A stretch of 34,170 bases of DNA from Bacteroidota bacterium. GTDB lineage: Bacteria > Bacteroidota > Bacteroidia > Chitinophagales > UBA2359. Positions within the stretch are counted from its first letter, which is position 1, and the number at the start of each line of letters is the position of its first letter. A model generated the notes under the pieces. It ran no database searches. It saw only the letters and a list, made by a program, of their open reading frames with translations, and had not been told where the DNA came from. Positions 450 through 33,151 of the stretch are shown one piece after another. Both the position numbers and the translations under genes were made by a program. Where the stretch lies: NCBI GenBank assembly GCA_020631155.1, contig JAHDHV010000016.1, positions 1 to 34,170 of the forward strand, given 5' to 3'.

Positions 450-1898
450 ATGTATTATTCAATACGCGTATTTTTAGTAGTCTATTTATGGTTAAATCTT
501 CTTTGTATCAACAACATTTGTGCTCAACAATCAAATAAATGGGAAGCAGATTTCGATTATTTGATAGAAGAACTGCGCTTACAACATAAAGGATTATATC
601 AATACAAAACTAAGCAAGTAGTTGATAGTCAATTGGATAGCCTGCGTAAGTTGCTAAAAAAGCCAATGAATAAAATTGAGTTTTTCAAAATAGTCTATGC
701 GACAATTGCCTTAACAAATGAAGGGCATACCTATGCTTATTTACCTAAATGGGCAATGGTAAAAGTGGGTTTGTCGAAATCTTTTTTACCTTTAGCCGTA
801 AAATTTTGCAATAAAAAATTACTCATTCATCAGTATTATGGAAAAGAGCATCCAAAACTAAAACGAGGCCTGCAAATTCTATCCATTAATGGAAAAACAG
901 TAGAACAAATCACCAAAGATTTATTTTCCTATATGCCTTCTGATGGCTTCAATGAAACCTTTAAATACGAATCATTGGGTTTAGGAGTCAATTTATCCCT
1001 ATTATACCGTTTGATATATGGTAAGGCAAAACGATTTGAGCTAGTCGTACAAGAATTTGAAAAAGATGCACCCCTTTCATTAACTTTGAAAGGAGTGCGA
1101 TTTACTAAATTTAGAAAACAAAAAAATATTCAACTGAAAAGCAAGAAATTTAACTTTCAACAATTTCAATATACACTTCTTAATGATTCAATCGGATATT
1201 TAAGCGTGCCCAGTTTTGGCAATATCGACAGCGATAAAGGCAGTTTTTCACAATTTTATGCAGAGAGCTTTCGCAAAATAGATTCCGCAAAGGTTAAACA
1301 TTTAATCCTTGATTTACAAGCAAATCGAGGCGGAACGGAAGGAAATGAGAATTTGTTATATAGCTATTTGAGTAAGGATGTTTTTCAGAAATACGCTTTT
1401 GTGTCTATGCCGTTGAAGCCCTATAAACAAAGAAAAACCAGAAAATCATATATAGAAGATGGATGGCAAATAAAAAATGAACGAGCAGAACGAGGGGAAC
1501 ATACTTTGAGGAGTGATTACTACTCAGATTTAGGGTATCGTCCAGTAGATAAAAAAATGATTTACGATAATAAATTATATATTTTGACCAGTGGTACTAC
1601 TTTTTCTGGAGGAGCAGAATTTTCTAGTATGGTAAAAATGAATCAAAGAGGGGTTTTTATTGGTGAAGAAACGGGGGGCGTATATGAAGGCAACATCAGT
1701 GGACATGCTGCTACGATACAATTGCCCAATAGCAAAATAACTGTTGATATTCCCATTATGCACTTTCGCATCAATGTAGAGCCTGAAAAAAAGGGGAGGG
1801 GCGTAATGCCTGAACATACAGTGCCGCAGACATGGGAAGCGTATCTGCAAGGAAAAAATGCCAAATTAGATTATGTATTAGAGAGGTTGGTTCGTTGA
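450..1898 (+). CDS. S41-family (C-terminal processing/tail-specific-like) peptidase, secreted. The ORF track starts at a TTG at 387; ATG at 450 begins signal peptide MYYSIRVFLVVYLWLNLL
   Basis: Motifs LILDLQANRGG and ILTSGTTFSGGAEF typical of S41 peptidases; PDZ-like segment LQILSINGKTVEQI; N-terminal signal peptide. Confidence 0.75.
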   Translation: MYYSIRVFLVVYLWLNLLCINNICAQQSNKWEADFDYLIEELRLQHKGLYQYKTKQVVDSQLDSLRKLLKKPMNKIEFFKIVYATIALTNEGHTYAYLPKWAMVKVGLSKSFLPLAVKFCNKKLLIHQYYGKEHPKLKRGLQILSINGKTVEQITKDLFSYMPSDGFNETFKYESLGLGVNLSLLYRLIYGKAKRFELVVQEFEKDAPLSLTLKGVRFTKFRKQKNIQLKSKKFNFQQFQYTLLNDSIGYLSVPSFGNIDSDKGSFSQFYAESFRKIDSAKVKHLILDLQANRGGTEGNENLLYSYLSKDVFQKYAFVSMPLKPYKQRKTRKSYIEDGWQIKNERAERGEHTLRSDYYSDLGYRPVDKKMIYDNKLYILTSGTTFSGGAEFSSMVKMNQRGVFIGEETGGVYEGNISGHAATIQLPNSKITVDIPIMHFRINVEPEKKGRGVMPEHTVPQTWEAYLQGKNAKLDYVLERLVR

Positions 1899-1965
1899 TT
1901 CGTTGATTCGTGATTTGTGATTTGTGGATTCGTGATTAGTAGCTCAGTGATTCGTTTTTGAGGTT
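1899..1965. repeat. Imperfect tandem repeats of GATTCGT/GATTTGT units (TTCGTTGATTCGTTGATTCGTGATTTGTGATTTGTGGATTCGTGATTAG...)
   Basis: Direct reading. Confidence 0.6.
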
Positions 1966-2908: not shown

Positions 2909-3178
2909 GTAGGTATGATATTTGAAGTGTAATGAACTGTTTAAACTTTTATAAAGTATTGAAAAGTATTTTCTCCCCTTTTTTGACTATTTCAAGCTTT
3001 ATGTCTTATTGCTTTTGTGTATTTCTTGTCAAAAATAGCAATAAATTTCGCTTTTTGATACTATCAACCAGACAACTTTTGCTTTTTTATTGCTTCTATT
3101 TTTTTCTTGTCCTATAGCTACTTTTTGTACAACATTTTTAAAGGTGATTTAGTGCCATCATTTGTTAAGTAATACAGA

Positions 3179-3343
3179 AATAATGAGTTGTGAATCATAA
3201 ACCTAAAACTGTTTTAGACTATATGAAGCGAAAAACTTAAACATTGGTAGAAACATATTTCTACTACGGTAAGGTTTTTCAAGGAAATATAAAGCAAAAT
3301 AATAAAGCAAATTGCTTCAACTGATTATTGTAGAATTACTAAG
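3179..3343. repeat. Copy 1 of a ~150-165-bp dispersed element (termini AATAATGAGTTG ... CAACTGATTATTGTAGAATTACTAAG), homologous to 19601-19753
   Basis: Co-linear blocks align between the two copies (AATAAT.A.TTG..A.CATAAA; AAG(G)CGAAAAAC; TACGGyrAGGyTTTTCAAsG; AAGCAAAATAAyAAAGC; CAAyTGATTATTGTAGrATkACTAA). Confidence 0.5.
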
Positions 3344-3636
3344 AATAAAATTGTGTGTAGGTGAATAGTGCTTGACTATTTATCGCATAACAAAGTGCAC
3401 TAATAAACTGATTACAAAAAAATTACAAATAAATTTGATTTACCCTATATGTCATTAGATTTGATTTAAATTCATCGAAAAGATAAGGTTTTTAAAACAT
3501 AAAAATAATTTACTAATCAAAAAATGTTTCTTAACAGGTAGTTAAATTGTCCAAAACTTGCTATTTTTGGTTTTCTTACCTATCTTAAAGCTTTGAAAAC
3601 GATTATCTTTTACTAAATTGTATAACTATTGATTAA

Positions 3637-4194
3637 ATGCTTTACAAATTAACACTCAAAAACACCGATAAAAAGCTCATTGTCTCAGACAAGGTCTATG
3701 AAGCTTTAGCACGAAATGAATATTTTCAAAGTATTCAATTACTCAAGAATTTGCGGATTCACTCCTATGGTTATGCCTTCTTCCAGAAAAATTTTGCCAA
3801 GCCCGAAGGCGGCTATAAAAACATAACGATTTATATACATCGTTATGTGGCAGAAAACTTTGTAGAAAAACCGCAAAGCAATAAACGACTCCTCGTTAGT
3901 TTTCGTAACGGCAACCGCCTAGACTGTAGAGAAGAAAACATCATCTGGGTCACCGCCTCGCAATTGGTTCGCAATACCGAAGGCATCATCAGCAACAGCA
4001 CCGGCTATCGCGGCGTTACAAAGGTAAATAATAAATACCGAGCAGCCATTTTTAGGGGCAAAACTCGCTACGATCTTGGTGATTTTACCAGCCCCGAAGA
4101 AGCTGCACGAGCCTATAACCGCAAGTCTATCGAATGGTTTGGCGTGACTAAAAGCTTAAACAAAATTCCGGGCGAGGACATCCAAGTTCGTTGA
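3637..4194 (+). CDS. HNH endonuclease (HNH_3-like) fused to an AP2/ERF-type DNA-binding domain; homing-endonuclease-like
   Basis: HNH_3-like segment IHRYVAENF...FRNGNRLDCREENIIWV; AP2 signature YRGVTKVNNKYRAAIFRGKTRYDLGDFTSPEEAARAYNRKSIEWFG; local GC clearly above window average. Confidence 0.75.
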   Translation: MLYKLTLKNTDKKLIVSDKVYEALARNEYFQSIQLLKNLRIHSYGYAFFQKNFAKPEGGYKNITIYIHRYVAENFVEKPQSNKRLLVSFRNGNRLDCREENIIWVTASQLVRNTEGIISNSTGYRGVTKVNNKYRAAIFRGKTRYDLGDFTSPEEAARAYNRKSIEWFGVTKSLNKIPGEDIQVR

Positions 4195-6856: not shown

Positions 6857-6876
6857 TTTAATTATGAATTTATTTA

Positions 6877-6940
6877 ATTACGAATTACGAATTACGAATT
6901 ACGAATTACGAATTAGAAATTACGAATTAGAAATTACGAA
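6877..6940. repeat. Tandem 9-bp repeat (ATTACGAAT / ATTAGAAAT) x7
   Basis: Direct reading; same unit recurs at 27430-27462. Confidence 0.85.
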
Positions 6941-6995
6941 TTGTTGAATTATTATTTAGTCAACTGACCATTAATAATTCAACAATTCATTTTTT
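6941..6995 (+). terminator. Hairpin TTGTTGAATTATTA-loop17-TAATAATTCAACAA followed by TTCATTTTTT; likely ribBA terminator
   Basis: 14-bp perfect inverted repeat plus T-run. Confidence 0.55.
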
Positions 6996-7034
6996 ATGAG
7001 AAAAAAATATTTTTTATTTTATTTGTTATTAACT

Positions 7035-8165
7035 ATGGAAAAGGCATTTAAAAGTATTCGCATCCAAAATTTTAAGTCTATTAAAGACATAGAACTCAAT
7101 TGCAGCCGCATTAATTTATTTATTGGCAAGCCAAATGTGGGCAAATCCAATATTTTAGAGGCACTGTCTTTATTTGCCGCGCCTTTTAGTCAAGATGAAA
7201 AATATCTATCCGAATTTATTCGCTATCGAAATTTTAGCAATCTTTTTTATGATGATAATATTCGAGAACCCATTTTAATCACTTCTAATCTTGGGAATGG
7301 GCATTTGTTTTATGATAGAGAAAGATGGGCTTTCGGTCTGGTAATGAGTGATAAAAGTGTAAATTCAAATAAGTTGAATGTTTTAAATGTTGATTTAGTA
7401 AGTGACTATCTTGATAGCTTAGTAATTAAAAATACTTTAATCAGTGCTTTTCCTTCAAAAAATAAAGATGCTCATGGTGAGCATATAAGATTTAGTTTTT
7501 TCCAAAGTATTGATAGAGCTGGCTATAGAGGTAGGAGTGATAGAAACTATAAGTTTAAGTTGGAATACACATCAACTCTAAAAAAATACACCTTTAAAGA
7601 AGGAATAAATATCAGTTCACAAGGGGATTACAGCCTTTATCCTCCATTTGGAGATAATTTATTTTTAGTAGTACAAACAAATCCTGAGTTGAGGAGGGAA
7701 ATAGCTGATTTTTTTGAAGAATATAATATGGATTTTATATTAGATATAAAAAATAATGAATTTGAGGTGCAAAAAAAGGTAGATGGCATTGTTTATAAAA
7801 GACCTTACCAACTAATTGCAGATACTTTAAAGCGCATTATTTTTCATTATGCAGCCATTTATTCCAATAAAGATTCGATTTTATTATTTGAAGAACCAGA
7901 AAATCACTCTTTTCCGCCTTATGTGCGAGAGTTAGCCCATAAAATTGTGGATGATGAAAGCAATCAATTTTTTATTACCACACATAGTCCCTATTTATTT
8001 AATACCATTATCGAAAATGCATCAAGAGAAGATGTTTCTGTTTTTATCACTAACTTTGAGCAACATCAAACAAAGGTCAAGCAATTAACAGAGGATGAAA
8101 TTGCCGAACTATCTGATCATGGGGCAGATATTTTTTTCAATTTAAATTGGTTTGAAAATGAGTAA
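7035..8165 (+). CDS. ABC-type (AAA_21/AAA_15-like) ATPase, defense-associated type; module 1 ATPase. The ORF track start 6996 is less likely than MEKAFKSIRIQNFKSI at 7035
   Basis: Walker A IGKPNVGKSNILEAL; Walker B/D-loop ILLFEEPENHSFP; H-loop FITTHSPYLF; N-terminus typical of OLD/AbiL/PARIS-class ATPases. Confidence 0.75.
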   Translation: MEKAFKSIRIQNFKSIKDIELNCSRINLFIGKPNVGKSNILEALSLFAAPFSQDEKYLSEFIRYRNFSNLFYDDNIREPILITSNLGNGHLFYDRERWAFGLVMSDKSVNSNKLNVLNVDLVSDYLDSLVIKNTLISAFPSKNKDAHGEHIRFSFFQSIDRAGYRGRSDRNYKFKLEYTSTLKKYTFKEGINISSQGDYSLYPPFGDNLFLVVQTNPELRREIADFFEEYNMDFILDIKNNEFEVQKKVDGIVYKRPYQLIADTLKRIIFHYAAIYSNKDSILLFEEPENHSFPPYVRELAHKIVDDESNQFFITTHSPYLFNTIIENASREDVSVFITNFEQHQTKVKQLTEDEIAELSDHGADIFFNLNWFENE

Positions 8166-8649
8166 AGAGCGACACCCAAATATTCTTCCTGAATGTTATG
8201 CGGATACTTTGCTAGTGCATTTACTCGGTTTCAAATATCCCAATCATTGCCCTAGTATTGGTGCGGTAGCAAATACGATGAAAAAACAAAGCCTCGCTAT
8301 TGGAGTGATAGATCGAGATAAAAGGCAGCCCAAATATTTTAGTGAGTTTGATTTATTGGAAGAAAAACACGATTTGCAACTCAAAAAGCACCCTAACAAG
8401 CGACATTATTTGATTGTAGTTTCTCCTGCTTTTGAAAAATGGATATTTAAGGCAGCAGATTCTGTTGATGTCAAACCTGAAAAATATGGTTTTAAAACTT
8501 GGAAACGCTTTAAAAATATTTCTAAAAGTAGAACTGTAGATAGAAATCAGGATTTTAAGCAATTCATCAATGCCATCAAGCAAAAAAAATCACCACCTAC
8601 AGAGCAGATGATTGAGTGGATTCAGGATATTTTAGATAAAAACCTTTGA
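8158..8649 (+). CDS. Small (163 aa) partner protein of module 1 ATPase; possible minimal Toprim/RloB-like effector (DxD in LAIGVIDRDKRQ). Start overlaps the ATPase stop (ATGAGTAA); an alternative ATG lies at 8152
   Basis: Translationally coupled overlap with upstream ATPase; basic protein; DxD motif; no confident family assignment. Confidence 0.45.
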   Translation: MSKERHPNILPECYADTLLVHLLGFKYPNHCPSIGAVANTMKKQSLAIGVIDRDKRQPKYFSEFDLLEEKHDLQLKKHPNKRHYLIVVSPAFEKWIFKAADSVDVKPEKYGFKTWKRFKNISKSRTVDRNQDFKQFINAIKQKKSPPTEQMIEWIQDILDKNL

Positions 8650-8799
8650 TGGATTAGCTGTTTGTTTTTAGCGTGAAAAAGCATTTTTTTTACACCAAAA
8701 ACAAGCTTTTTTTCTATTGAAAACTTAGTAAGTACTGCACAATAATTAAACGGGATTCTTTGTTTGATTAAAACAATGAAAGCCAATACTTTAGAACAA

Positions 8800-8813
8800 A
8801 ATTGTGCACAATT
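8800..8813. promoter_or_regulatory. Perfect 14-bp palindrome AATTGTGCACAATT ~80 bp upstream of module 2 ATPase; related half-site CTGCACAATAATT ~60 bp further upstream
   Basis: Self-complementary sequence in the intergenic region between modules. Confidence 0.3.
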
Positions 8814-8892
8814 AATTAGTGCTTGGCACTTATTTCCTATTTTTGTTATTGATTAAGGTAGGGAGCAATTATTTTGTATAAAAAAAAGAAAA

Positions 8893-10185
8893 ATGAAAAG
8901 TTTTCGCATTAAAAATATAAAAGCTTTTAAGGATTCGGGGAAGATTGAAATAAAGCCGATTACTTTATTTTATGGCAAAAATAATACGGGAAAAAGCAGT
9001 TTAATTCGCTTTCCATTGGTATTAAAACAAACGATGCAGCGACCCTATGCCCCATTGATGTTTACAGGCATCCCCGAACGCCCTGATAATGTAGATTATG
9101 GCACTTATAAAGAAGTTGTGTTTAATAATGATGAAAGCAAACATATTGAGTTTGAATTGGAAGTGGATTATAGAAAAAATACCTTAAATTATTTAGTAAA
9201 TATTCAAAGAAAAAATGGACAACTTGAAGTGTTCTCTTATAAGGATAGGTATGAATCGTTGGAAGTAGAAGACGGTCAGTATATCTTCAGTGATTCACAA
9301 CTAACAAAGGAAGCAGTAGAAGTAGATTTTGATGGTTTTTTTCCAAAAGCGAGTCATTTTATTAATAAGCCAAAAACAGAAGATGGAAGGTTACTAGCTC
9401 GTCGTCATTCTTATCTAACTGACTTCTTCAATCAAATTTCTTACCTATCCACTTATCGTCCTAAACCAAAACGGCAATATCGTTTTAGTGATGTGGATTT
9501 CTCTAAATCGGGGGCAGAAGGCATTTATTGGGCAGAAATTTTGGGTTTTTATCATGAACAAAAAAATACCGCTTTTTTTGATGTACTTAATGATTGGTTA
9601 GTAAAAAATACAGGTTTAAGACTGTTGATTAAGGATTTGGGAAGTGTTTTTGAGATTATGGTAGAAAATATAAACACCAAACGAACAGATAATGTGGTAG
9701 ATATAGGCTCAGGATGGCAATTTCTACTACCTATTTTAATACAAACATTTGTTCATATTGAAAAAAAATCAGCTTCACCTTTTATTAAAATCATAGAAGA
9801 ACCAGAAATGCATCTGCATAGTTCGGTGCAAACAGCGGTTGCCGATTTATTTATTTGGGCAACACAAACGAATCCGCAAAATCGCTTTATGATAGAAACC
9901 CATAGTGAAAGTATTCTCTTGCGAACAGTTCGCAGGGTTATGGAATGGCTACAAACAAAAGGGGAAAAAGGCATTAATCCTGATGATGTAATTGTTTATT
10001 TTATTGAAAAAAGTGCCAATGAAGAAGAAGGTTCGAAGGTTACCCCTTTTAAAATTAATGAGAAAGGAATTTTGAAAAGTACTTTAGATGGTAGCATTAT
10101 GGATGAATCATTTTTTGACACTGATTTTGAGGAAGTAGTTGCCATTAACAAATTGCATGTATCACAGGCCGCGAAAAGTCAATAA
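8893..10185 (+). CDS. ABC-type ATPase (AAA_15/AAA_21-like, possibly with DUF3696-like C-terminus); module 2 ATPase, AriA/OLD-ATPase-like
   Basis: Walker A LFYGKNNTGKSSLIRF; signature-like IGSGWQFLLPIL; Walker B IKIIEEPEMHLH; H-loop MIETHSESILL; N-terminus MKSFRIKNIKAFKD. Confidence 0.75.
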   Translation: MKSFRIKNIKAFKDSGKIEIKPITLFYGKNNTGKSSLIRFPLVLKQTMQRPYAPLMFTGIPERPDNVDYGTYKEVVFNNDESKHIEFELEVDYRKNTLNYLVNIQRKNGQLEVFSYKDRYESLEVEDGQYIFSDSQLTKEAVEVDFDGFFPKASHFINKPKTEDGRLLARRHSYLTDFFNQISYLSTYRPKPKRQYRFSDVDFSKSGAEGIYWAEILGFYHEQKNTAFFDVLNDWLVKNTGLRLLIKDLGSVFEIMVENINTKRTDNVVDIGSGWQFLLPILIQTFVHIEKKSASPFIKIIEEPEMHLHSSVQTAVADLFIWATQTNPQNRFMIETHSESILLRTVRRVMEWLQTKGEKGINPDDVIVYFIEKSANEEEGSKVTPFKINEKGILKSTLDGSIMDESFFDTDFEEVVAINKLHVSQAAKSQ

Positions 10186-10188
10186 ACT

Positions 10189-11349
10189 ATGAATATTTGT
10201 ATTTCAGAAAATTTATGGAGGGCGGCTTTAACGGAAGAAGATACTTGCACTGTCATTGAAGAATTGCTACTTACTGTAAGAGCAAAAAAGCATAAGTTGT
10301 ATTTTGACTGGGACGAAGCTGTGCCTATTACAGAGTTGTTACAAAGTGATTTATTTGGTTTTTATAATCGAAGAATACTTAAAAAAAGCTATGAAAGATC
10401 ACGAACAGCTTTTCATTCCCTCGAAAAATATGTCTTAATCGTTCCTAAATCCTATATTGAGCAATGCAAAACGCAAGAGAATGTTAGGGCTTATTTTCAA
10501 GATCAAAAAGCAGTTAAAAGCAGCCCTGAACAAACGATTGAATTTATTGCTATTGAAGCTTGTCAACATTATTTATGCAGCCCTTTGATGATTATGGTGG
10601 AGGATGAAGAAAGTGATAAACTTTTTCTCAGTAGCATTTATCCTATTGTTATTCAATCAGTTAGCAATTTAGAAAATGCCAAATCCTTTGAAGAATTGAT
10701 TAAAGAACAGGAAATAGAGGTACTACATGGTGGAGGTACAGGTGTAACACAACGATTGAAGAATATCAAGTATCCTAGACGTGTTTTTTGCCTAATTGAT
10801 AGCGATAAATTATTTGAAAATGATGAAGGAACGGACGATACTAGAAAAAAACAAAGAGAAATCAACAATATTTGTAATCGAAAAGGCTTTGTTTTACATA
10901 TTCTCCACAACCGAATGATTGAAAATTACTTACCTGATAAAGCAATAAAAGAGTGGAGTAAAAAACAATCTCCTGTTATTCGACAAAACATAGCTAATCA
11001 CCCCTATTTTCAGCTAACAAGTACACAAAAAGCATTTTTTGATTGTAAAAAAGGTTTACTGCTCAAAGATTTTCAATATCCCGAAATTCAACAATCGTAT
11101 CTTGTACAATATCAACAAATACAACAAAATTCAGAACAATTTGATGCACTAAATAAGTTGATTCAAAACCAAGCTACAAAAGAAGATGGTAGCATTTTAA
11201 AAGTGAAAATTATTCAGGGCTTGAATCGGGAAATTTACAAAGCATTTAACGAAATCAAAAAAACTGAAAACCAAATCACCTCTGACAGTTTTGGAACGCA
11301 CCTCCAAGAATTAAAAGACATTTGCATAGCCATTCAAAGGCAGTTATAA
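10189..11349 (+). CDS. Module 2 partner (386 aa): putative Toprim-like (DUF4435/OLD-nuclease-like) effector
   Basis: Candidate Toprim elements MIMVEDEESDKLF (Glu), HGGGTG, FCLIDSDKLF (DxD); starts 4 nt after the ATPase stop; assignment by motif only. Confidence 0.45.
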   Translation: MNICISENLWRAALTEEDTCTVIEELLLTVRAKKHKLYFDWDEAVPITELLQSDLFGFYNRRILKKSYERSRTAFHSLEKYVLIVPKSYIEQCKTQENVRAYFQDQKAVKSSPEQTIEFIAIEACQHYLCSPLMIMVEDEESDKLFLSSIYPIVIQSVSNLENAKSFEELIKEQEIEVLHGGGTGVTQRLKNIKYPRRVFCLIDSDKLFENDEGTDDTRKKQREINNICNRKGFVLHILHNRMIENYLPDKAIKEWSKKQSPVIRQNIANHPYFQLTSTQKAFFDCKKGLLLKDFQYPEIQQSYLVQYQQIQQNSEQFDALNKLIQNQATKEDGSILKVKIIQGLNREIYKAFNEIKKTENQITSDSFGTHLQELKDICIAIQRQL

Positions 11350-11385
11350 CTCTATTAGAGTTTGGAGGTTGGTTTTTAGCCCTTT

Positions 11386-11450
11386 AAGTACTTAGACATA
11401 AGATGTGAGACATAAGACTTGAGATAGTTCATTCATTATTAACAGTTTAT
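11386..11450. repeat. Copy 1 of ~65-bp dispersed element AAGTACTTAGACATAAGATGTGAGACATAAGACTTGAGATAG...ATTATTAACAGTTTAT (second copy at 24060-24124)
   Basis: ~80% identity between the two copies, both immediately 3' of + strand stop codons. Confidence 0.5.
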
Positions 11451-11536
11451 GACAAGTTCAAATGTCATTTAATTTTGTCTAGTTACTTATTTTTTTAAAA
11501 AAGGGCATTAGTTTTAAAGTTTATTTAAAAAATAAA

Positions 11537-11574
11537 AACCTTATAACCTTATAACTTTGCAACCTTCCAAACCC
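11537..11574 (+). promoter_or_regulatory. Copy b of conserved upstream motif AACCTTATAACCTTATAACTTTGCAACCTTCCAAACCC, ends 25 nt before the NUDIX ATG
   Basis: Motif shared with 363-386 and 15677-15709(-). Confidence 0.3.
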
Positions 11575-11599
11575 TAATTTACACCAACATTTCACCACC

Positions 11600-16105: not shown

Positions 16106-16183
16106 AGTAGCCTCTGGCTACACTGATAAAAACAAATAAAAAATTTAACAACTTTCGCTTTTATCCTGTTTTTGGTATAACAG

Positions 16184-16263
16184 CTAAAAATCTAAAAATC
16201 TAAAAATCTAAAAATCTAAAAATCTAAAAATCTAAAAATCCAAAAGTCCAAAAGTCCAAAAAT
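16184..16263. repeat. Tandem 8-bp repeats (CTAAAAAT x6, CCAAAAGT x2, CCAAAAAT) followed by a leader-like TCGAACTTCTAATTGCTAACCTCT
   Basis: Direct reading; same unit family as the 2111-2414 array. Confidence 0.85.
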
Positions 16264-16789
16264 CGAACTTCTAATTGCTAACCTCTATTCATTATGACGA
16301 TTGCAAACTATAAAAAAGATGGCTAAGTAAACCAATGTAATCAATTTTTGGTGTTTTTGATGTAATACATCCGCCAATTAGTTAAGAAATACACAAAGAA
16401 CTTAGCAGAAATAAGTAAATAGTGACTTTACTATGATAAATGTAGACTAAAATATAAGCGAAATAGTGTTAGCTTTTAGAAAGCTTGTAGAAGCATTTTA
16501 TGAATTGTTTTTACTGGAAAGATGTGAAGTTTTTTATATTTTAAGTTGATGATATTTTTTTTATTTAAAAGTTTGATAATCAAGTTAAAACCCAATTAAA
16601 AAGCTAATATCTGATTGCTGTTTACTGAAAAGCTAAAAGAAATATTGTTTTTTAGAAAAATTATAAGCCAATTCAGCATCTAAATTTGAATTTTACTTAT
16701 TTTTGTGACCATTTTGAGACATTTGTATTCCATTAAACCATTATATAGGCGCAGTCCTCAAGCCCCTACCAATCATTAACACAAGCTTT

Positions 16790-19594
16790 ATGCAGATAAA
16801 AAACCTACTGTTTTACCTTCTTTTATTTGGAAGTCTATGCGCGACTAATACGTGGGCGCAAGATGTAAAAGTCAACTTGCAAAAAGATAAGGTAGATACC
16901 GAGAGTAAACGACCTACCGCACCCAAAGATACGAATAAAACTTCCTCAGATTTAGGTAGTAAAATATTACAAAGTATTCAACAAAAAAAGGCTGCCACAA
17001 TCACTACAGAAACAGCGGCAAAGCCTACTCCTACACCTGCCGAAGCTAAAAGACCTACAGATACACAAGCAACTGATACCGCTACTCAACCAAAGACAAC
17101 AAAAACGGAAACGACAACAGAAACTAAAACAGATAGCGATTCTGTGACAGATTCGGATAGTGATTCTAATGACGGTGCCGATACTGTTGCAACAGCCGAT
17201 ACCACAGGAACTACGCCCGAACCTTCGGCGATGGATTCGATGTCTAAAGCGGTGGAGGATGTGGTAAAAACGGGCTTAAAGAAGACAAAACGAAAAATTA
17301 CACATACCATTAATGCTATTACAGCTAACAAACCTGTTTTAGCACCGCCTGCGCCACCTGCCGAGCAAACCAAAATTCTAAAATTTGATGTTCAGGTACT
17401 TCGCGAGCTGGCACCAACAGAAGCAGTTGCCGTTGATGGTAAGCCTAAAAAGGACAAAGAAAAAGAGGAAGAAACTGCTGCCATAGATAGTACAAAACAA
17501 GAAACTAAGGAAGAGACACCAAAAATTACCAAGCTTGAAATTACTGCTTTGGATGCTAGAGGTAGACGGAATACGGCTGTTAATGGAACTTATAATTTCG
17601 CAATTGATAAAGGTGACCCACAATCTTTCGAGTTTGTAGACGGACGTGCAACAAGTGAACTGGACGCTGTTCCGCAAACCTTATTTGTAGAGCATTTTAA
17701 TGGAATAGAACGCTTAAACGATTTTTACCGTGTTAATGCCGATTATGACGATCCGCAAACCAGTATCATTCCTCAGTGGATGGGACTCATTCCGCCTTTG
17801 GTTGCCATTATTTTAGCACTATTATTTCGGGAAGTTTTATTTTCCCTGTTCATTGGTGTATTCATTGGCGTGTTGACTTTGGCAGGCTTTAGTTGGGAAA
17901 ATGTCATTCCTAGCTTTTTCAAAGTAATAGATAAATACATTATTGGTGCATTGAAAAACCCTGATCATTTATCCGTCATTGTATTTTCTTTATTAATTGG
18001 CGGTATGGTGGCCATTATTTCGAGAAATGGGGGTATGGCAGGAGTAGTCAAGGGCTTGTCGTTCTTTGCGCGAGGTCCCCGAAGTTCGCAATTTGTGACT
18101 TGGCTCATGGGTATTGCCATCTTTTTCGATGACTATGCCAACACCTTGATCGTGGGAAATACCATGCGCTCTATTACGGATAAATATCGCGTTTCTCGTG
18201 AAAAATTAGCTTATATTGTAGATAGTACGGCGGCTCCCGTTGCTGCCATTGCTTTGATTACCACTTGGATCGGTGCGGAGTTGGGCTATATTGGCGATGC
18301 TAGTAAAACGCTAGGCATTAACGAAGAACCTTATTCCATTTTCCTAAACTCCTTGCAATATTCTTTTTATCCTGTATTGACTTTATTTTTTATTTTAATG
18401 TTAATTTTATTTAAAAGAGATTATGGGTCAATGTGGGATGCGGAAGTGCGCGCAAGAGCGACAGGAAAACTAGCGGATATGGGCGTGCGTAAGGAAGAGG
18501 AGCTAAAAGATGCAATGGAAGAATTGCAACCTGTAGAGGGAATCGGGCATTATGCATTTAACGCTATTTTACCGATTTTAACCGTTATTGGCGTTACGAT
18601 GTGGGGTTTATACAGCACAGGTTATGATGCTGCCGTTATGGAAGACCCTACCTTAACCACCTTCAACAAATTATCTACCATTGTTGGGAACTCAGATTCC
18701 TATAAAGCCTTGATGTGGAGTTCGATTTCAGGTGTATTGATGGCCGTCTTTTTAAGTGTATTGGGACGATTTTTATCCTTGCGAGGCGCGATGGAAAGTA
18801 TGGTAATGGGGATTAAAACCATGATGCCTGCCATCGTTATTTTGGTATTGGCGTGGGCATTGGCGCAAATCACCAAAGATTTACGCACCGCCGATTATCT
18901 GACTACCTTATTAGAAGGCAATCTCGACCCCAAACTAATGCCGACCATCACCTTTTTACTATCTGGATTCATTGCCTTTGCCACAGGTTCTAGTTGGAGT
19001 ACAATGGCGATTTTATACCCTATTTTACTGCCAACCACTTGGACCATTTGCATGACCGCAGGCTTTCCAGTAGACGTAACCATGCCGATTTTTTACAGCG
19101 TAACCGCCAGCGTTTTAGCAGGTTCGGTCTTCGGCGATCACTGTTCTCCAATTTCCGATACCACCATTTTAAGCTCCTTAGCCACAGGCTGTAACCACAT
19201 TGACCACGTAAGTACACAGCTACATTATGCGATTACTGTAGGAATTGTGAGTGTAGGCATGGGCTTATTAGCAGTATATACTGACTGGCCGTTCTGGTCG
19301 TATTTTGCTATTGGAGCGAGTTGTTTATTACTCATCGTACTAATTGCAGGGCGCACCGTTCACGATGCCGAATACTACCAACCACAAGTAGCCGCAGCAG
19401 GAGTAGGAGCAGAAGAAAACACTGGTATTGCTGCCGATAATGCAGATGCCACAGATAAAAGTGCCGATACGGGCGAAATTCCACCAAGCAGCAAAGTGGA
19501 GGTTTTTCCAACCATCTTACCCCCACCATCAGAAGAAGACATAAAAAAAGCTAGTGAAGGCAATGATGACGATGAAATTTTTGATCCTAAGTAA
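16790..19594 (+). CDS. NhaC-family Na+/H+ antiporter fused to a ~330-aa N-terminal signal-peptide-bearing, T/D/S/P/K-rich low-complexity extension and a short acidic C-terminal tail
   Basis: Signal peptide MQIKNLLFYLLLFGSLCATNTWA; low-complexity region with DSDS and TETTTETKT repeats; C-terminal 600 aa shows NhaC-like TM core (FFDDYANTLIVGNTMRSITDKY, DSTAAPVAAIALITTWIG). Confidence 0.7.
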   Translation: MQIKNLLFYLLLFGSLCATNTWAQDVKVNLQKDKVDTESKRPTAPKDTNKTSSDLGSKILQSIQQKKAATITTETAAKPTPTPAEAKRPTDTQATDTATQPKTTKTETTTETKTDSDSVTDSDSDSNDGADTVATADTTGTTPEPSAMDSMSKAVEDVVKTGLKKTKRKITHTINAITANKPVLAPPAPPAEQTKILKFDVQVLRELAPTEAVAVDGKPKKDKEKEEETAAIDSTKQETKEETPKITKLEITALDARGRRNTAVNGTYNFAIDKGDPQSFEFVDGRATSELDAVPQTLFVEHFNGIERLNDFYRVNADYDDPQTSIIPQWMGLIPPLVAIILALLFREVLFSLFIGVFIGVLTLAGFSWENVIPSFFKVIDKYIIGALKNPDHLSVIVFSLLIGGMVAIISRNGGMAGVVKGLSFFARGPRSSQFVTWLMGIAIFFDDYANTLIVGNTMRSITDKYRVSREKLAYIVDSTAAPVAAIALITTWIGAELGYIGDASKTLGINEEPYSIFLNSLQYSFYPVLTLFFILMLILFKRDYGSMWDAEVRARATGKLADMGVRKEEELKDAMEELQPVEGIGHYAFNAILPILTVIGVTMWGLYSTGYDAAVMEDPTLTTFNKLSTIVGNSDSYKALMWSSISGVLMAVFLSVLGRFLSLRGAMESMVMGIKTMMPAIVILVLAWALAQITKDLRTADYLTTLLEGNLDPKLMPTITFLLSGFIAFATGSSWSTMAILYPILLPTTWTICMTAGFPVDVTMPIFYSVTASVLAGSVFGDHCSPISDTTILSSLATGCNHIDHVSTQLHYAITVGIVSVGMGLLAVYTDWPFWSYFAIGASCLLLIVLIAGRTVHDAEYYQPQVAAAGVGAEENTGIAADNADATDKSADTGEIPPSSKVEVFPTILPPPSEEDIKKASEGNDDDEIFDPK

Positions 19595-19600
19595 TGCGGA

Positions 19601-19753
19601 AATAATCAATTGAACCATAAAGCCACAGTGATTTTGTTTTGTACAAGGCGAAAAACGTAGGCATAGTGTGGAGCTACGGCGAGGCTTTTCAACGTAGTAC
19701 AAGGCAAAATAACAAAGGCGACTGGTTCAATTGATTATTGTAGGATGACTAAT
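19601..19753. repeat. Copy 2 of the ~150-bp dispersed element; starts 7 nt after the antiporter stop; perfect 17-bp terminal inverted repeats AATAATCAATTGAACCA / TGGTTCAATTGATTATT
   Basis: Co-linear homology to 3179-3343; internal direct repeats GTACAAGGCGAAAA / GTACAAGGCAAAAT. Confidence 0.5.
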
Positions 19754-19842
19754 GCAGATGATGATTTATTGGCGAAGGGGTGATATAGATGGGAGATAGG
19801 AGACGTGAGAGATGAGATTTTTAAAATTTAAGATAAATTAAG

Positions 19843-19885
19843 AAAGCCCAGTACTTTTTGGAAAATGAAGTGCTGGGCTTTTTAT
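19843..19885 (+). terminator. Rho-independent terminator AAAGCCCAG-loop-CTGGGCTTT followed by TTTAT
   Basis: 9-bp stem plus T-run on the + strand. Confidence 0.5.
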
Positions 19886-19946
19886 GTAAGAATTATTTTT
19901 TTTGCAAGAAAGATAATTTTTGTAATTTAAATATTACGAATCCACA

Positions 19947-20432
19947 TTACCTTTCCCCCACCAACTCTTTAGCCTTTTTATTAATTATAATACCGCCAAT
20001 CAAACAAGTAAGAAAAGTCGCCAGCATAACCACCCACCAAAAATAGCGCATATCAAAAAAGCGAACCCCAGTTTCTGCCCAAAAAGCAGCGTATAAACCC
20101 ACAACTGACCAACTCATGCCATAAAAATGTCCAACCATCCAGTCTTTATTTTTGCGTTTGAGAGCTGGATACATACCTGCGATTATGGAGCCTAAACTTA
20201 GGAGTGCAAATCCATGAAATAGATTTATCTTGCCAAAATTATAAATAAATAAAGCCGATACATTAAGAGAAATCATAGCTACAACATACACATAACCAAT
20301 GCGTTTGTGAAAAAGCGTACCTTTAGGTTTTAAGAAAACAATACTGCCACAAATCAGCGCAACAAGGGCTACTAGGGTGTGAAATAGCCCTAGATAACTA
20401 TGAATGATATGGTATTTTGCTAAAAAATCCAT
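19947..20432 (-). CDS. Integral membrane protein (4-5 TM), family uncertain
   Basis: Hydrophobic helices throughout; clean ORF with ATG start. Confidence 0.5.
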   Translation of the reverse strand: MDFLAKYHIIHSYLGLFHTLVALVALICGSIVFLKPKGTLFHKRIGYVYVVAMISLNVSALFIYNFGKINLFHGFALLSLGSIIAGMYPALKRKNKDWMVGHFYGMSWSVVGLYAAFWAETGVRFFDMRYFWWVVMLATFLTCLIGGIIINKKAKELVGER

Positions 20433-20787
20433 GAGTAAATGTTTTTAATTTAGGTAAAGTGAAAAGGTAAGCGAAATAGAATAGACTATTTTTTTGTGGG
20501 AGAATACTAGATGTCACACATCAAGTTAAATTTATTTATACAAATATTGGCATGTTTTCTGAAAATACAGTAACTTACAGCACCTATACAACCATTTTCC
20601 AACAATACTAACTACTGGAAAGTTCCTAGAAAAGACTTTATTTTAAATTTAATACTATAAAGGAACTATTTGTTTGAAAACATCCTTGTTTTTTACGGAA
20701 GGAATTTACTTAATCTTGAATTGAGGTTAACTACTAGTGGCTTGATTATCTCAAATCTTATGTCTAATTTCTTATATCTAAGTACTT

Positions 20788-21525
20788 ATGATAGAACTCT
20801 TAAATGAATCCTTATCCTCTGCAAATATTTTACTGACGTTCTTATTGATTGTCATGCTAATATACTGGTTTTTTGTTATATTAGGTGCAATTGATATGGA
20901 ATTTTTTGATTTCGATTTAGACCTAGAGGCGGATATGGATGTTGACGTAGATGTGGATGTAGATGTAGATGTGGACGCAGATATGGATGTGGACGCAGAT
21001 GCTGATGCAGATACGGCGAGTACTGCTAGTGGAGGCCCCGGAATTTTTGTGTCTATCCTACAATTTTTCAATGTGGGTTCTATCCCATTTATGATGTTCC
21101 TCAGTACATTAGTCCTTTGCATGTGGGTCATTTCTATCCTCACCAATTATTACATTATCCCAAATAAAACTTTTGCACTTGGATTATTGTTTATGATTCC
21201 AAATTTATTTATCAGTCTATTTATCAATAAAATAATCACTACACCACTTGTTTACATATTTAAAAACTTGGATGTTGCTCATAAAGATATGGACTTAATT
21301 GGTCATCTGTGTACATTAACTTTAGCCCTGAAAGGGGGACAACTAGGGCAGGCAGAAATTATTGCAAACAAAGGCGATCATTTGAGCATTACAGTTAGAG
21401 CAGCTAAAAATGCTTCATTTAAAAAAGGAGATAAAGCAGTGATTTTGGATAAAAATGAAGAAAGAGGATACTATGTGATTGGACAAATAGATGAAGATTT
21501 AGAAGCTTTTGAATTTAAGAACTAA
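20788..21525 (+). CDS. NfeD-like membrane protein (short YuaF-type homolog with C-terminal OB-fold), with internal (DV/DA)n repeat
   Basis: N-terminal TM segments; C-terminal GQAEIIANKGDHLSITVRAAKNASFKKGDKAVILDKNEERGYYVIGQ resembles the NfeD OB-fold; sits immediately upstream of the flotillin gene, as in yuaF-floT operons. Confidence 0.6.
   Translation: MIELLNESLSSANILLTFLLIVMLIYWFFVILGAIDMEFFDFDLDLEADMDVDVDVDVDVDVDADMDVDADADADTASTASGGPGIFVSILQFFNVGSIPFMMFLSTLVLCMWVISILTNYYIIPNKTFALGLLFMIPNLFISLFINKIITTPLVYIFKNLDVAHKDMDLIGHLCTLTLALKGGQLGQAEIIANKGDHLSITVRAAKNASFKKGDKAVILDKNEERGYYVIGQIDEDLEAFEFKN
20929..21013 (+). repeat. In-frame hexanucleotide microsatellite (GATGTG/GATGCA)n encoding DMDVDVDVDVDVDVDADMDVDADADAD
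   Basis: Direct reading inside the NfeD-like CDS. Confidence 0.7.
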
Positions 21526-21565
21526 TTGTAGATTTATGAAAAATAATATTTTATCTGAAAAACTA

Positions 21566-21617
21566 ATTTCTGATCTCTAACTTCTAAAAACCTAAATATC
21601 CAAAAGTCCAAATATCC
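21566..21617. repeat. Short copy of the leader plus 16-bp repeat family (AATTTCTGATCTCTAACTTCTAAAAACCTAAATATCCAAAAGTCCAAATATCCA)
   Basis: Matches leader and units of the 2080-2414 array. Confidence 0.7.
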
Positions 21618-21742
21618 ATATTATTGAATCAAAAATAAATGTCTTATGTCTTTACTGTTGATTATTTTTTTATTATGTTTGCTGCATAAATGCAGTGAAT
21701 TAGGAGCTTTGTGAAATTAAAAACAATAAACTATATATAACT

Positions 21743-24061: not shown

Positions 24062-24124
24062 GTACTTAGACGTAAGATATGAGATATGAGACTTGGGGTA
24101 ACTGATTTATTGTTAATTGTTTAT
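24060..24124. repeat. Copy 2 of the ~65-bp dispersed element AAGTACTTAGACGTAAGATATGAGATATGAGACTTGGGGTAACTGATTTATTGTTAATTGTTTAT; overlaps the flotillin stop codon
   Basis: Alignment with 11386-11450. Confidence 0.5.
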
Positions 24125-24220: not shown

Positions 24221-24268
24221 ACAACTCACAACTCACAACTCACAACTCACAACTCACAACTCACAACC
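24221..24268. repeat. Heptanucleotide tandem repeat (ACAACTC) x ~6.5 immediately upstream of the folC ATG
   Basis: Direct reading. Confidence 0.85.
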
Positions 24269-24273
24269 AATTC

Positions 24274-25578: not shown

Positions 25579-25583
25579 AATAA

Positions 25584-25635
25584 TGTTGTTTTTGTTTCTA
25601 AAAATCTGTATTTTTGTAGAAAAAAAGAAATAAAT
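25584..25635. repeat. 52-bp direct repeat, copy 1 (TGTTGTTTTTGTTTCTAAAAATCTGTATTTTTGTAGAAAAAAAGAAATAAAT), abuts the abiEi ATG
   Basis: Identical to 27034-27085. Confidence 0.9.
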
Positions 25636-26263
25636 GAGCTTTTTTGAATTTCAAAATACCTTTGTTAAGCATCCTGTTATTTCAATATTAGAGATTAAAA
25701 AGTACTTTTCAAATTTTGATAATAATGCTTTAACTCGATGGCAAAAAAAAGGATATATAAGAAAAATTAGAAATGGTTTTTATCGTCTAAGCAAACCAAA
25801 GATTACTACTGTAGAAGAACTATTTTTTACTGCAAATCGCATTTATTGGCCTTCTTACATTTCGTTACATTCTGCTTTGCGATGGTATGATTTTATTCCA
25901 GAGGAAGTATTTTCAATAACCTCTGTTACTACTAAAAAAACACAGCAGTTTGAAACAGTAGATGGCACGTTTAAGTATCAAAATTTTAAAAAGAATCTGT
26001 TTTTTGGGTATAAACTAGAAAAGAATAATAAAGGATATTACTTTAAAATGGCAACACCAGAAAAAGCATTACTAGATTTTTTGTATTTGAATCCCCATCT
26101 TAAAACAGAAGATGATATTTTTGAATTGCGATTAAATGCTTTTGAAATTCAGGAGAAAGTAAATCTAAAAGTTTTAGATGCATATTTGTCACTTTTTGAT
26201 TCTAAAGCCTTAAATAAAAGAGTAAGTAATTTTAAAAAAATATTATATAATGAAAACTATTGA
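25634..26263 (+). CDS. abiEi: AbiEi-family antitoxin / transcriptional regulator (type IV TA)
   Basis: N-terminal wHTH GYIRKIRNGFYRL; core PSYISLHSALRWYDFIPEEVFSITSVTT typical of AbiEi; overlaps downstream abiEii by 14 nt. Confidence 0.8.
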   Translation: MSFFEFQNTFVKHPVISILEIKKYFSNFDNNALTRWQKKGYIRKIRNGFYRLSKPKITTVEELFFTANRIYWPSYISLHSALRWYDFIPEEVFSITSVTTKKTQQFETVDGTFKYQNFKKNLFFGYKLEKNNKGYYFKMATPEKALLDFLYLNPHLKTEDDIFELRLNAFEIQEKVNLKVLDAYLSLFDSKALNKRVSNFKKILYNENY

Positions 26264-27026: not shown

Positions 27027-27033
27027 TCAATTG

Positions 27034-27085
27034 TGTTGTTTTTGTTTCTAAAAATCTGTATTTTTGTAGAAAAAAAGAAATAAAT
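27034..27085. repeat. 52-bp direct repeat, copy 2, identical to 25584-25635
   Basis: Exact match. Confidence 0.9.
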
Positions 27086-27108
27086 TAACTTTTAAAGACA
27101 AAGTATTT

Positions 27109-31565: not shown

Positions 31566-31592
31566 ATTCAATTATATCATGCCATCATTTTC

Positions 31593-33116: not shown

Positions 33117-33151
33117 TCATTTTCAATTCTCCATTTTCAACTTTCCATTCA

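What the first reader, a model, noticed from the sequence alone, without database searches (positions are those of the whole stretch)
3179..3343. Dispersed ~150-bp element with terminal inverted repeats (two copies: 3179-3343 and 19601-19753)
The two copies align co-linearly over five blocks. Copy 2 has perfect 17-bp terminal inverted repeats and internal direct repeats; copy 1 is more degenerate. Both are intergenic: one is ~300 bp upstream of the HNH-AP2 gene, the other starts 7 nt after the antiporter stop. This fits a MITE-like mobile element or a family of structured small RNA genes (long closing helix).
Basis: seen in the sequence. Interest (0 to 1): 0.5.

Follow-up and report, generated by a model that had tools for sequence, protein, structure and literature searches.

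The report
Two-copy palindromic MITE-like repeat element
Two copies of a ~160-170-base non-coding sequence that folds into one long hairpin sit at unrelated places on this Bacteroidota contig and look like a small non-autonomous mobile repeat, one copy fresh and one decayed; this is an ordinary kind of bacterial genome feature, and its mobility and copy number could not be tested.

Summary
Two same-strand copies (refined: 3169-3339 and 19591-19749) share 71-78% identity (blastn E 6e-14). Homology stops sharply on both sides. The copy 2 stem is a perfect 17-bp inverted repeat within a 28-nt imperfect one. Each copy is bracketed by TAA...TAA next to GTAAT/ATTAC termini. In copy 2 the element supplies the antiporter's stop codon and lies upstream of a strong terminator, so it is probably transcribed in the 3' UTR.

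Copy 2 is GC-rich (40%). Copy 1 (27%) has decayed to intergenic composition: 31 of 49 differences are G/C to A/T. Pair conservation between the copies is no better than a neutral simulation.

I found no Rfam family, no Bacteroidota-type promoter motif, no third copy in the window, and no copy in two syntenic relatives or in the plasmid and phage collections. Single-motif scans of the viral, genome and metagenome collections gave only chance hits. The rest of this genome is not in any searchable collection, so copy number and mobility remain untested.

Best reading: a lineage-specific, MITE-like (Correia/ERIC/REPIN-like) palindromic repeat, meaning a new member of a known kind. The small-RNA-gene alternative is not supported. 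Interest is low.

The parts
3169..3339 (+). Copy 1, 171 nt, the degenerate AT-rich copy (27% GC). It lies in the 728-nt divergent spacer between the 157-aa gene (2435-2908, - strand) and the HNH/AP2 gene (3637-4194, + strand).
   Evidence: Alignment and repeat; CM score 200.9 bits; weaker fold, z = -3.6; GC content.
3166..3168 (.). TAA directly left of copy 1, a candidate target-site duplication.
   Evidence: Read. The same trinucleotide flanks all four ends.
3340..3342 (.). TAA directly right of copy 1, a candidate target-site duplication.
   Evidence: Read.
3168..3190 (+). Left inverted-repeat arm of copy 1. It pairs with 3318-3340 (23 nt, 78% complementary).
   Evidence: pair I1 of region 2.
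3318..3340 (+). Right inverted-repeat arm of copy 1.
19591..19749 (+). Copy 2, 159 nt, the intact GC-richer copy (40% GC). It forms one long imperfect hairpin. It lies between the NhaC-type antiporter ORF and the terminator shared with the convergent DUF2306 gene.
   Evidence: MFE -53 kcal/mol as RNA, z = -6.2; as DNA z = -7.2; CM score 193 bits.
19588..19590 (.). TAA directly left of copy 2, a candidate target-site duplication.
   Evidence: Read.
19750..19752 (.). TAA directly right of copy 2, a candidate target-site duplication.
   Evidence: Read.
19590..19617 (+). Left inverted-repeat arm of copy 2 (28 nt, 82% complementary). Positions 19601-19617 are the perfect 17-bp part.
19723..19750 (+). 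Right inverted-repeat arm of copy 2. Positions 19723-19739 are the perfect 17-bp part.
19641..19653 (+). Internal direct repeat, unit 1 (GTACAAGGCGAAA).
   Evidence: family D1.
19697..19709 (+). Internal direct repeat, unit 2 (GTACAAGGCAAAA).
   Evidence: family D1.
16790..19594 (+). NhaC-family Na+/H+ antiporter gene. Its last 4 nt, including the stop codon at 19592-19594, lie inside the GTAAT terminus of copy 2.
   Evidence: ORF; Pfam PF03553, E = 3.8e-52; coordinates read.
19841..19883 (.). Strong intrinsic terminator hairpin: a 17-bp stem, an A-run before it and a U-run after it. It sits between the convergent genes, 90 nt downstream of copy 2.
   Evidence: -25 kcal/mol, z = -6.5.

Best explanation
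This is a lineage-specific, non-autonomous palindromic repeat element, MITE-like in the same functional class as Correia, ERIC and REPIN elements. It is about 160 nt long, has no coding capacity, and ends in imperfect inverted repeats (GTAAT...AATAATCAATTGAACCA and its complement). The whole unit can fold into one long hairpin.

Inferred history: a transposase encoded elsewhere in the genome inserted copies at TAA sites and duplicated the TAA. Copy 2 is a comparatively recent insertion. It landed in the last codons of the antiporter gene, so the protein now ends on a stop codon supplied by the element. Copy 1 is an old insertion in a divergent spacer that has drifted to the AT-rich composition of intergenic DNA and lost about a fifth of its base pairs.

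Inferred effect: copy 2 lies between the stop codon and the terminator. The antiporter mRNA should therefore carry a very stable 3'-UTR hairpin of about 160 nt, which could alter mRNA stability or processing. This would be a side effect, not the reason the sequence exists.

Shown here: the two copies, the inverted repeats, the sharp borders, the TAA flanks, the compositional asymmetry, and the position relative to the stop codon and terminator. Inferred: transposition, TAA as a target duplication, the relative ages, transcription, and any RNA-level effect.
For: (1) The two copies are highly significant and sit in unrelated contexts: one in a divergent promoter spacer, one in a convergent 3' end. 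Both have sharp homology borders.

(2) Terminal inverted repeats of 28 nt (82%) and 23 nt (78%) are present, with a perfect 17-bp core in copy 2. The hairpin energy is far below shuffles on both strands, and also with DNA parameters.

(3) All four ends are bracketed by TAA in direct, not inverted, orientation, next to GTAAT/ATTAC (copy 1) or GTAAT/ATGAC (copy 2).

(4) There is no ORF of note in the element; all six frames are interrupted.

(5) 31 of the 49 differences are G/C in copy 2 against A/T in copy 1, with only 9 the other way. GC content is 40% in copy 2 and 27% in copy 1, against 28.7% for intergenic DNA. This fits a young copy and a decayed copy of the same inserted sequence.

(6) Loss of pairing in copy 1 is compatible with neutral decay. 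Of copy 2's 56 pairs, 37 are kept, 5 compensated, 2 kept one-sidedly and 12 broken. A neutral simulation expects 3.1 compensated pairs (P = 0.19) and 17.7 broken pairs (P = 0.056).

(7) The element is absent from the syntenic antiporter locus of the nearest available relative, where only 88 nt separate the stop codon from the next gene. It is also absent from 36.6 kb of relatives' DNA.

(8) Two independent Logan assemblies of the same organism both break at window position 19714, inside copy 2's right arm, whereas contigs run straight through the degenerate copy 1. This hints that copy-2-like sequence recurs in that metagenome.

(9) Removing the element plus one TAA leaves an open frame that continues ...DPNADDDLLAKG*. 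This resembles the acidic-hydrophobic C-termini of homologues (...FDEDLIA...WDEDLIV). The support from this point is weak.
Against: Only two copies are known, and the rest of the genome cannot be searched. Exact-motif scans for the 3' arm returned only chance hits: a 21-mer in 596 Gb of species-representative genomes and in 241 M metagenome records, and the 18-nt core in IMG/VR.

TAA is very common in 29%-GC spacer DNA. It could be part of the element rather than a duplication, and with n = 2 the two readings cannot be separated. Copy 2 also shows a competing 9-nt direct repeat (TAATGCGGA / TAATGCAGA) that copy 1 does not share.

No transposase with matching ends is present. The only IS on the contig (31593-33116, IS256-like) makes an 8-bp duplication and shares just (T)AGTAAT with the element's termini.

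No empty site is available in a close relative; the relative examined is only 62% identical in the antiporter protein.

Broken pairs are somewhat fewer than neutral expectation (P = 0.056), so weak selection for the hairpin cannot be excluded.
Confidence: 0.6

Rival explanations
1. The copies are structured RNAs: either a small family of about 160-nt hairpin sRNA genes, or a cis-acting 3'/5'-UTR RNA element selected for its fold.
For: The predicted hairpin is very stable. RNAalifold keeps 39-40 pairs in both copies, with 4-5 double-sided changes. Both copies are on the same strand, and copy 2 lies inside a probable transcript. Broken pairs are slightly fewer than neutral expectation (P = 0.056).
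Against: No Rfam family matches at gathering score or at E <= 1-10 on either copy. No TAnnTTTG -7 motif lies in or just upstream of either copy on either strand, and no sigma-70-like hit stands above shuffles. No U-tract terminator follows the hairpin.

The double-sided changes are mostly GC to AT and are expected under the observed AT-biased spectrum (P = 0.19). The shuffle control gives 30/500. The hairpin is equally good on both strands and as DNA.

The two genomic contexts are functionally unrelated. Copy 1 has drifted to background composition. No copy was found in the relatives.
Confidence: 0.12
2. The copies are a non-mobile repeat: a palindromic protein-binding or recombination site, or a remnant of one segmental duplication or gene-conversion event. 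It would not be transposed and would have no family beyond these two.
For: Only two copies have been seen. No relatives were found anywhere. Conserved internal direct repeats (AAGC[G]AAAA) on both arms could be binding sites.
Against: The borders are sharp, with unrelated flanks, and the inverted repeats are terminal. Identical TAA brackets at all four ends are what an insertion leaves. One copy overlaps and terminates an ORF. Composition differs strongly between the copies, which is unexpected for a maintained binding site. The Logan contig breaks hint at further copies.
Confidence: 0.15
3. The mobile-element reading is correct but the mechanism differs. The element would be a REPIN/PATE-type hairpin moved as single-stranded DNA by a Y1 (RAYT or IS200/IS605-type) transposase. 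TAAG or TAA would then be a recognised target or cleavage motif, not a duplication.
For: The whole unit, not only its tips, is a hairpin, and it folds well as ssDNA. GTAG is conserved at the outer end of the right arm (TTGTAG in both copies). The same motif, TAAGTAAT, sits at the left border in both copies.
Against: No Y1 transposase is on the contig. The true terminal inverted repeats with matching direct TAA on both sides fit a DDE cut-and-paste model more simply. GTAG is only a 4-mer.
Confidence: 0.1

Closest known systems
Correia elements (NEMIS) of Neisseria
   Same: Size of about 100-160 bp, non-coding, terminal inverted repeats of about 26 bp, short A/T-only target duplication, and frequent location next to or overlapping gene ends. 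They are co-transcribed into mRNAs, where the hairpin is processed (own knowledge).
   Different: There is no sequence similarity and the phylum is different. Correia elements duplicate TA, not TAA, and occur in hundreds of copies. Here only two copies are known and nothing is known about expression.
ERIC / IRU elements of Enterobacteria, and REPINs
   Same: They are imperfect palindromes of about 100-130 nt in which the whole unit forms one long hairpin. They lie in transcribed intergenic regions and 3' UTRs (own knowledge).
   Different: ERIC elements have no clear TIR/TSD architecture. REPINs are doublets of GTAG-bearing REP sequences tied to a RAYT gene, and no RAYT was seen here. There is no sequence similarity.
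MITEs of Porphyromonas gingivalis (BrickBuilt, MITE239, MITE464/PgRS, MITE700; PMC4596501)
   Same: These are the Bacteroidota precedent: intergenic, non-coding, TIR-bearing elements with 10-20 copies and variable or missing TSDs.
   Different: Their TIRs match resident IS5-family elements (GAGACC..., ACGTCAG...). The present termini (GTAAT...) match no IS on the contig. The P. gingivalis elements are not whole-length hairpins.
Tourist-type MITEs / PIF-Harbinger-IS5 superfamily (3-bp TSD; PMC2213677)
   Same: A 3-bp TAA/TTA target duplication next to short TIRs is the signature of this superfamily.
   Different: That signature is described mainly in eukaryotes. The bacterial IS5 subgroups with 3-bp duplications are a lead from memory only. 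No such transposase was found here.

Membership tests
MITE (non-autonomous DNA transposon) | Short (about 50-1000 bp) and without coding capacity for a transposase | tested here: met
   The copies are 159 and 171 nt. All six frames are interrupted, and the longest frame inside the element is 52 aa with no real homologue.
MITE (non-autonomous DNA transposon) | Terminal inverted repeats | tested here: met
   Copy 2 has a 28-nt, 82% repeat with a perfect 17-bp core. Copy 1 has a 23-nt, 78% repeat.
MITE (non-autonomous DNA transposon) | Target-site duplication flanking each copy | tested here: inconclusive
   TAA lies directly outside both ends of both copies. With two copies and 29%-GC spacers it cannot be told apart from element sequence. 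A rival 9-nt repeat exists in copy 2 only.
MITE (non-autonomous DNA transposon) | Multiple dispersed copies in the genome | not testable with these tools
   There are two copies in 34 kb. The window is the whole contig, and lookups and scans returned no other DNA of this organism beyond short Logan contigs identical to parts of the window. The only hint is that two Logan assemblies break at 19714, inside copy 2.
MITE (non-autonomous DNA transposon) | Ends shared with an autonomous IS in the same genome | tested here: inconclusive
   The one IS on the contig (31593-33116, IS256-like, 8-bp TSD) shares only (T)AGTAAT with the element's ends. The rest of the genome is unavailable.
MITE (non-autonomous DNA transposon) | Presence/absence polymorphism (empty sites) among close relatives | not testable with these tools
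   The nearest antiporter locus available is 62% identical at the protein level. It lacks the element (88-nt spacer) but is too distant to count as an empty site. Three Logan samples carry copy 1 identically.
Curated structured RNA family (Rfam 15) | Score at or above a family's gathering threshold | tested here: not met
   Only a tRNA at 227-300 passes in the window. Permissive scans give no match at E <= 1 for copy 1. For copy 2 the only hit on the hairpin is a plant miRNA-precursor model at 20.5 bits against a gathering score of 180.
Independent sRNA gene (generic) | Own promoter and terminator; base pairs maintained by covariation | tested here: not met
   No TAnnTTTG motif lies within or just upstream of either copy. 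No sigma-70-like signal stands above shuffles, and no terminator directly follows the element. Covariation is not above the neutral simulation.
REP/REPIN (RAYT-mobilised) | Pairs of short GTAG-bearing palindromes plus a RAYT (Y1 transposase) gene in the genome | not testable with these tools
   GTAG is present at the right arm but is only a 4-mer. No Y1 transposase is on the contig, and the genome is unavailable.
Integron attC site | RYYYAAC ... GTTRRRY core sites, arrays of cassettes, and an integrase nearby | tested here: not met
   The arms read GAAATAATCAATTGAACC / GGTTCAATTGATTATTGTAG and contain no such cores. There is no integrase or cassette array among the ORFs.

The most novel reading that the evidence does not exclude
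The element could be the first glimpse of a so-far undescribed, whole-length-hairpin repeat family in an uncultured Chitinophagales-like lineage. On this reading the family is maintained for its fold, either REPIN-like and mobilised as ssDNA, or exapted as a 3'-UTR or stop-codon-donating RNA hairpin. It would then not be a dead DDE-type MITE.
Probability: 0.1. Interest if true: 0.4.

Novelty: new member of a known kind. Interest (0 to 1): 0.2.

Why it matters
If confirmed, the finding adds a MITE-like palindromic repeat to a poorly sampled Bacteroidota lineage. It also gives a concrete case of such an element replacing the 3' end and stop codon of a transporter gene and placing a -53 kcal/mol hairpin in its 3' UTR. 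That is useful for annotation, because it explains contig breaks and spurious small ORFs, and as a strain marker. It does not open a new question, since elements of this kind are well known in many bacteria.

Tried and rejected
Searches for more copies all failed.
- The exact-motif scan TGNTTCAAYTGATTATTGTAG in genome contigs gave 4 hits and in metagenome contigs gave 9. All lie in unrelated coding DNA, with no similarity beyond the motif.
- Three viral-contig scans gave nothing real.
- blastn 'distant' against plasmids and phages gave no match.
- The covariance model R1 found nothing in the relatives' loci or the viral loci.
- A protein-space search with a concatenation of the element's open frames found nothing.
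- A representative-library search with the 52-aa antisense frame returned a 1569-aa tandem-repeat ORF. Its E-value is inflated by 27 weak repeats (23% identity), so it is a chance similarity and was rejected.
- Look-ups of the window's own proteins returned only short Logan contigs identical to the window.

Hypotheses rejected:
- 6S RNA or another known hairpin RNA: no Rfam hit.
- attC site: no core sites and no integrase.
- Intrinsic terminator: no U-tract after the hairpin, and the real terminator lies 90 nt downstream.
- Derivative of the IS256-like element on the contig: different TIRs and an 8-bp rather than 3-bp duplication.
- Functional link to the HNH/AP2 gene: copy 2 has no such neighbour.
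- Selection for pairing: the neutral simulation is not exceeded.

Full report
**Observation**

The two stretches were read and aligned. They are co-linear on the + strand.
- The repeat finder reports 3264-3342 vs 19674-19752 at 78% identity without gaps (family D8).
- blastn of copy 2 against the window gives E = 6e-14 for the 3' half and E = 1e-3 for the 5' end.
- Over the full alignment, identity is 119/168 = 71%.
- A covariance model built from the pair scores the two sites at 201 and 193 bits. Nothing else in the window scores better than 13 bits (E = 0.7), so the window holds exactly two copies.

It sits inside a 28-nt, 82% complementary repeat. Copy 1 has a 23-nt, 78% version. The internal direct repeats also exist.

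Copy 2 folds into one long hairpin. Its MFE is -53.1 kcal/mol on the + strand (z = -6.2) and -48.2 on the - strand (z = -7.6), and it also folds well as ssDNA (z = -7.2). Copy 1 folds less well, with z between -2.7 and -3.8.

**Refined borders**

Outside these points, ungapped comparison of the flanks gives 3/15 and 4/16 matches, which is background (read).

Read as an insertion, each copy is TAA|GTAAT ... AT(T/G)AC|TAA.
- Copy 1 core is 3169-3339, with TAA at 3166-3168 and 3340-3342.
- Copy 2 core is 19591-19749, with TAA at 19588-19590 and 19750-19752.

The TAA trinucleotides are in direct orientation on both sides of both copies. That is what a 3-bp target duplication looks like, and not what an inverted terminal repeat would give (TAA...TTA). 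With two copies in 29%-GC spacer DNA this remains a candidate only. Copy 2 also shows a competing 9-nt direct repeat (TAATGCGGA / TAATGCAGA) that copy 1 lacks.

**Context**

The window is a complete 34,170-bp contig from NCBI. It comes from a Bacteroidota organism: one ORF has a Por_Secre_tail domain. The nearest antiporter homologues are about 60% identical Chitinophagales MAG proteins, and the nearest RibBA is 82% identical.

Copy 1 lies in the 728-nt divergent spacer between a 157-aa gene of unknown function (- strand) and an HNH_3 gene with an AP2-like tail.

Copy 2 overlaps the end of the NhaC-type antiporter ORF (16790-19594; Pfam PF03553). The stop codon at 19592-19594 is the TAA inside the element's GTAAT terminus. 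A strong terminator lies 90 nt downstream, shared with the convergent DUF2306 gene (19841-19883; -25 kcal/mol, z = -6.5). Copy 2 is therefore most likely transcribed as part of the antiporter 3' UTR; this is an inference.

Deleting the element plus one TAA leaves the frame open for ten more codons (...DPNADDDLLAKG*). Some homologues end similarly, in ...FDEDLIA and ...WDEDLIV. This is suggestive but weak, because a ten-codon open stretch is not unusual by chance.

**Age and selection**

The copies differ at 49 aligned positions. At 31 of them copy 2 has G/C where copy 1 has A/T, and only 9 go the other way. GC content is 40% for copy 2, 27% for copy 1, 28.7% for intergenic DNA and 34.7% for the window overall. 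Copy 1 therefore looks like an old copy that has relaxed to background composition, and copy 2 looks like a younger copy.

RNAalifold finds 39-40 shared pairs, with 4-5 double-sided changes. The shuffle control reaches the observed values in 30 of 500 trials.

Mapping copy 2's own 56 pairs onto copy 1 gives 37 unchanged, 5 compensated, 2 kept one-sidedly and 12 broken. I ran a simulation that mutates copy 2 site by site with the observed substitution spectrum. It expects 3.1 compensated pairs (P of 5 or more = 0.19) and 17.7 broken pairs (P of 12 or fewer = 0.056). There is therefore no significant evidence that the fold is under selection. The 'compensations' are mostly GC to AT on both arms, as AT-biased decay predicts.

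**Is it a known RNA or an sRNA gene?**

No Rfam family reaches its gathering score, apart from a tRNA at 227-300. Permissive scans of both copies give nothing credible. Neither copy has a Bacteroidota -7 motif (TAnnTTTG; the consensus is from my own knowledge) within or just upstream of it on either strand. Sigma-70-type hits do not exceed shuffles, and no U-tract follows the hairpin. The hairpin is as good on the minus strand and as DNA. The sRNA reading is therefore not supported.

**Relatives**

The source genome is not in the searchable collections.
- The 21-nt 3'-arm motif hit only unrelated coding DNA in 596 Gb of species-representative genomes and in the metagenome collection.
- Three viral scans found no real copy: one returned no matches and two returned only chance matches.
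- Plasmid and phage blastn gave nothing.
- Two syntenic loci from the nearest available relatives were fetched: L017 around RibBA and L018 around the antiporter. They contain no copy. In L018 the antiporter stop is followed by only 88 nt before the next gene.
- Protein-space searches with the element's open frames found nothing real.
- Logan contigs from SRR14415273-75 are 100% identical to the window. Three run straight through copy 1. The two that approach copy 2 from the right both stop at 19714, inside its right arm. This could be a graph branch caused by further copies, or it could be strain variation.

**Mechanism**

The best-supported reading (0.6) is a non-autonomous palindromic mobile repeat, MITE-like. 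It would be inserted at TAA by a transposase encoded elsewhere in the genome. Copy 2 would be recent and copy 1 a relic.

The only IS on the contig (31593-33116) is IS256-like. It has a perfect 8-bp duplication (TCATTTTC) and different inverted repeats, so it is not the parent.

A variant (0.1) is REPIN/PATE-like single-strand transposition. The rivals are a structured RNA (0.12) and a non-mobile palindromic site or duplication (0.15).

**Comparison with known families, and verdict**

The element works like Correia, ERIC and REPIN-type elements and like the P. gingivalis MITEs (PMC4596501). The TAA bracket recalls the 3-bp duplications of the PIF/Harbinger-IS5 superfamily (PMC2213677). Membership in 'MITE' is met for size, lack of coding capacity and terminal inverted repeats. 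It is inconclusive for the target duplication and the parent IS. It is untestable here for copy number and insertion polymorphism.

Verdict: a new member of a known kind, of low interest (0.2).

Noticed in passing
window 31585-33124: A degenerate IS is bounded by inverted repeats CTAGTAATAACGGTTTTCCCCGA / TCGGGGAAATCCGTTACAACTAG (31593-31615 / 33094-33116) and a perfect 8-bp target duplication TCATTTTC (31585-31592 / 33117-33124). Its transposase lies on the - strand, split into two ORFs (32545-32985 and 31933-32508), with a weak IS256-family hit (E = 1.7e-7, below cutoff).
   Followed up: partly
window 1888-1939, 2059-2474, 6872-6949, 11527-11575, 16171-16297, 21583-21622, 24221-24269: Many intergenic spacers carry tandem arrays of 7-, 8- or 16-nt units, for example TCCAAAAG/GCTAAATA about 26 times, TCTAAAAA, ACGAATT and ACAACTC. 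This habit of short tandem repeats in spacers is striking for a Bacteroidota contig and is unexplained.
   Followed up: no
window 25579-25643 and 27029-27093: A 65-nt direct repeat (94% identical) brackets a two-gene AbiEii-type toxin-antitoxin cassette (25634-27026). The repeat contains a TAnnTTTG-type promoter motif (TATTTTTG), as if a promoter region was duplicated when the cassette was inserted.
   Followed up: no
window 11383-11450 and 24057-24124: A second dispersed repeat of about 70 nt (81% identical) begins with the palindrome TAAGTACTTA, followed by purine-rich GAGAYATRAGA-like units. Both copies sit at or just after a stop codon, and the second overlaps the stop of ORF 21743-24061. 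Similar purine-rich units follow copy 2 of the element (19770-19815).
   Followed up: partly
L023 and L024 (= window 19714-22048 and 19714-21035): Two independent Logan assemblies (SRR14415274, SRR14415275) end at exactly window position 19714, inside the right arm of copy 2, whereas contigs spanning copy 1 are unbroken. This could be an assembly-graph branch caused by more copies, or by strain variation.
   Followed up: partly
L019 (ENA ERZ23499453, 765 bp) vs window 3478-4178: The HNH/AP2 gene and 160 nt upstream of it recur at 86.7% nucleotide identity in an unrelated ENA metagenome, although no other protein looked up from this contig has a >90% relative. The HNH gene may itself be mobile.
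   Followed up: partly
window 6996-11349 and 28746-31328: Several defence-like genes are present. There are two AAA_15/AAA_21 ATPases, each followed by an ORF with no Pfam family. There is also an 860-aa NB-ARC (STAND) protein next to a UPF0175/DUF3368 pair. The contig is rich in accessory genes.
   Followed up: no
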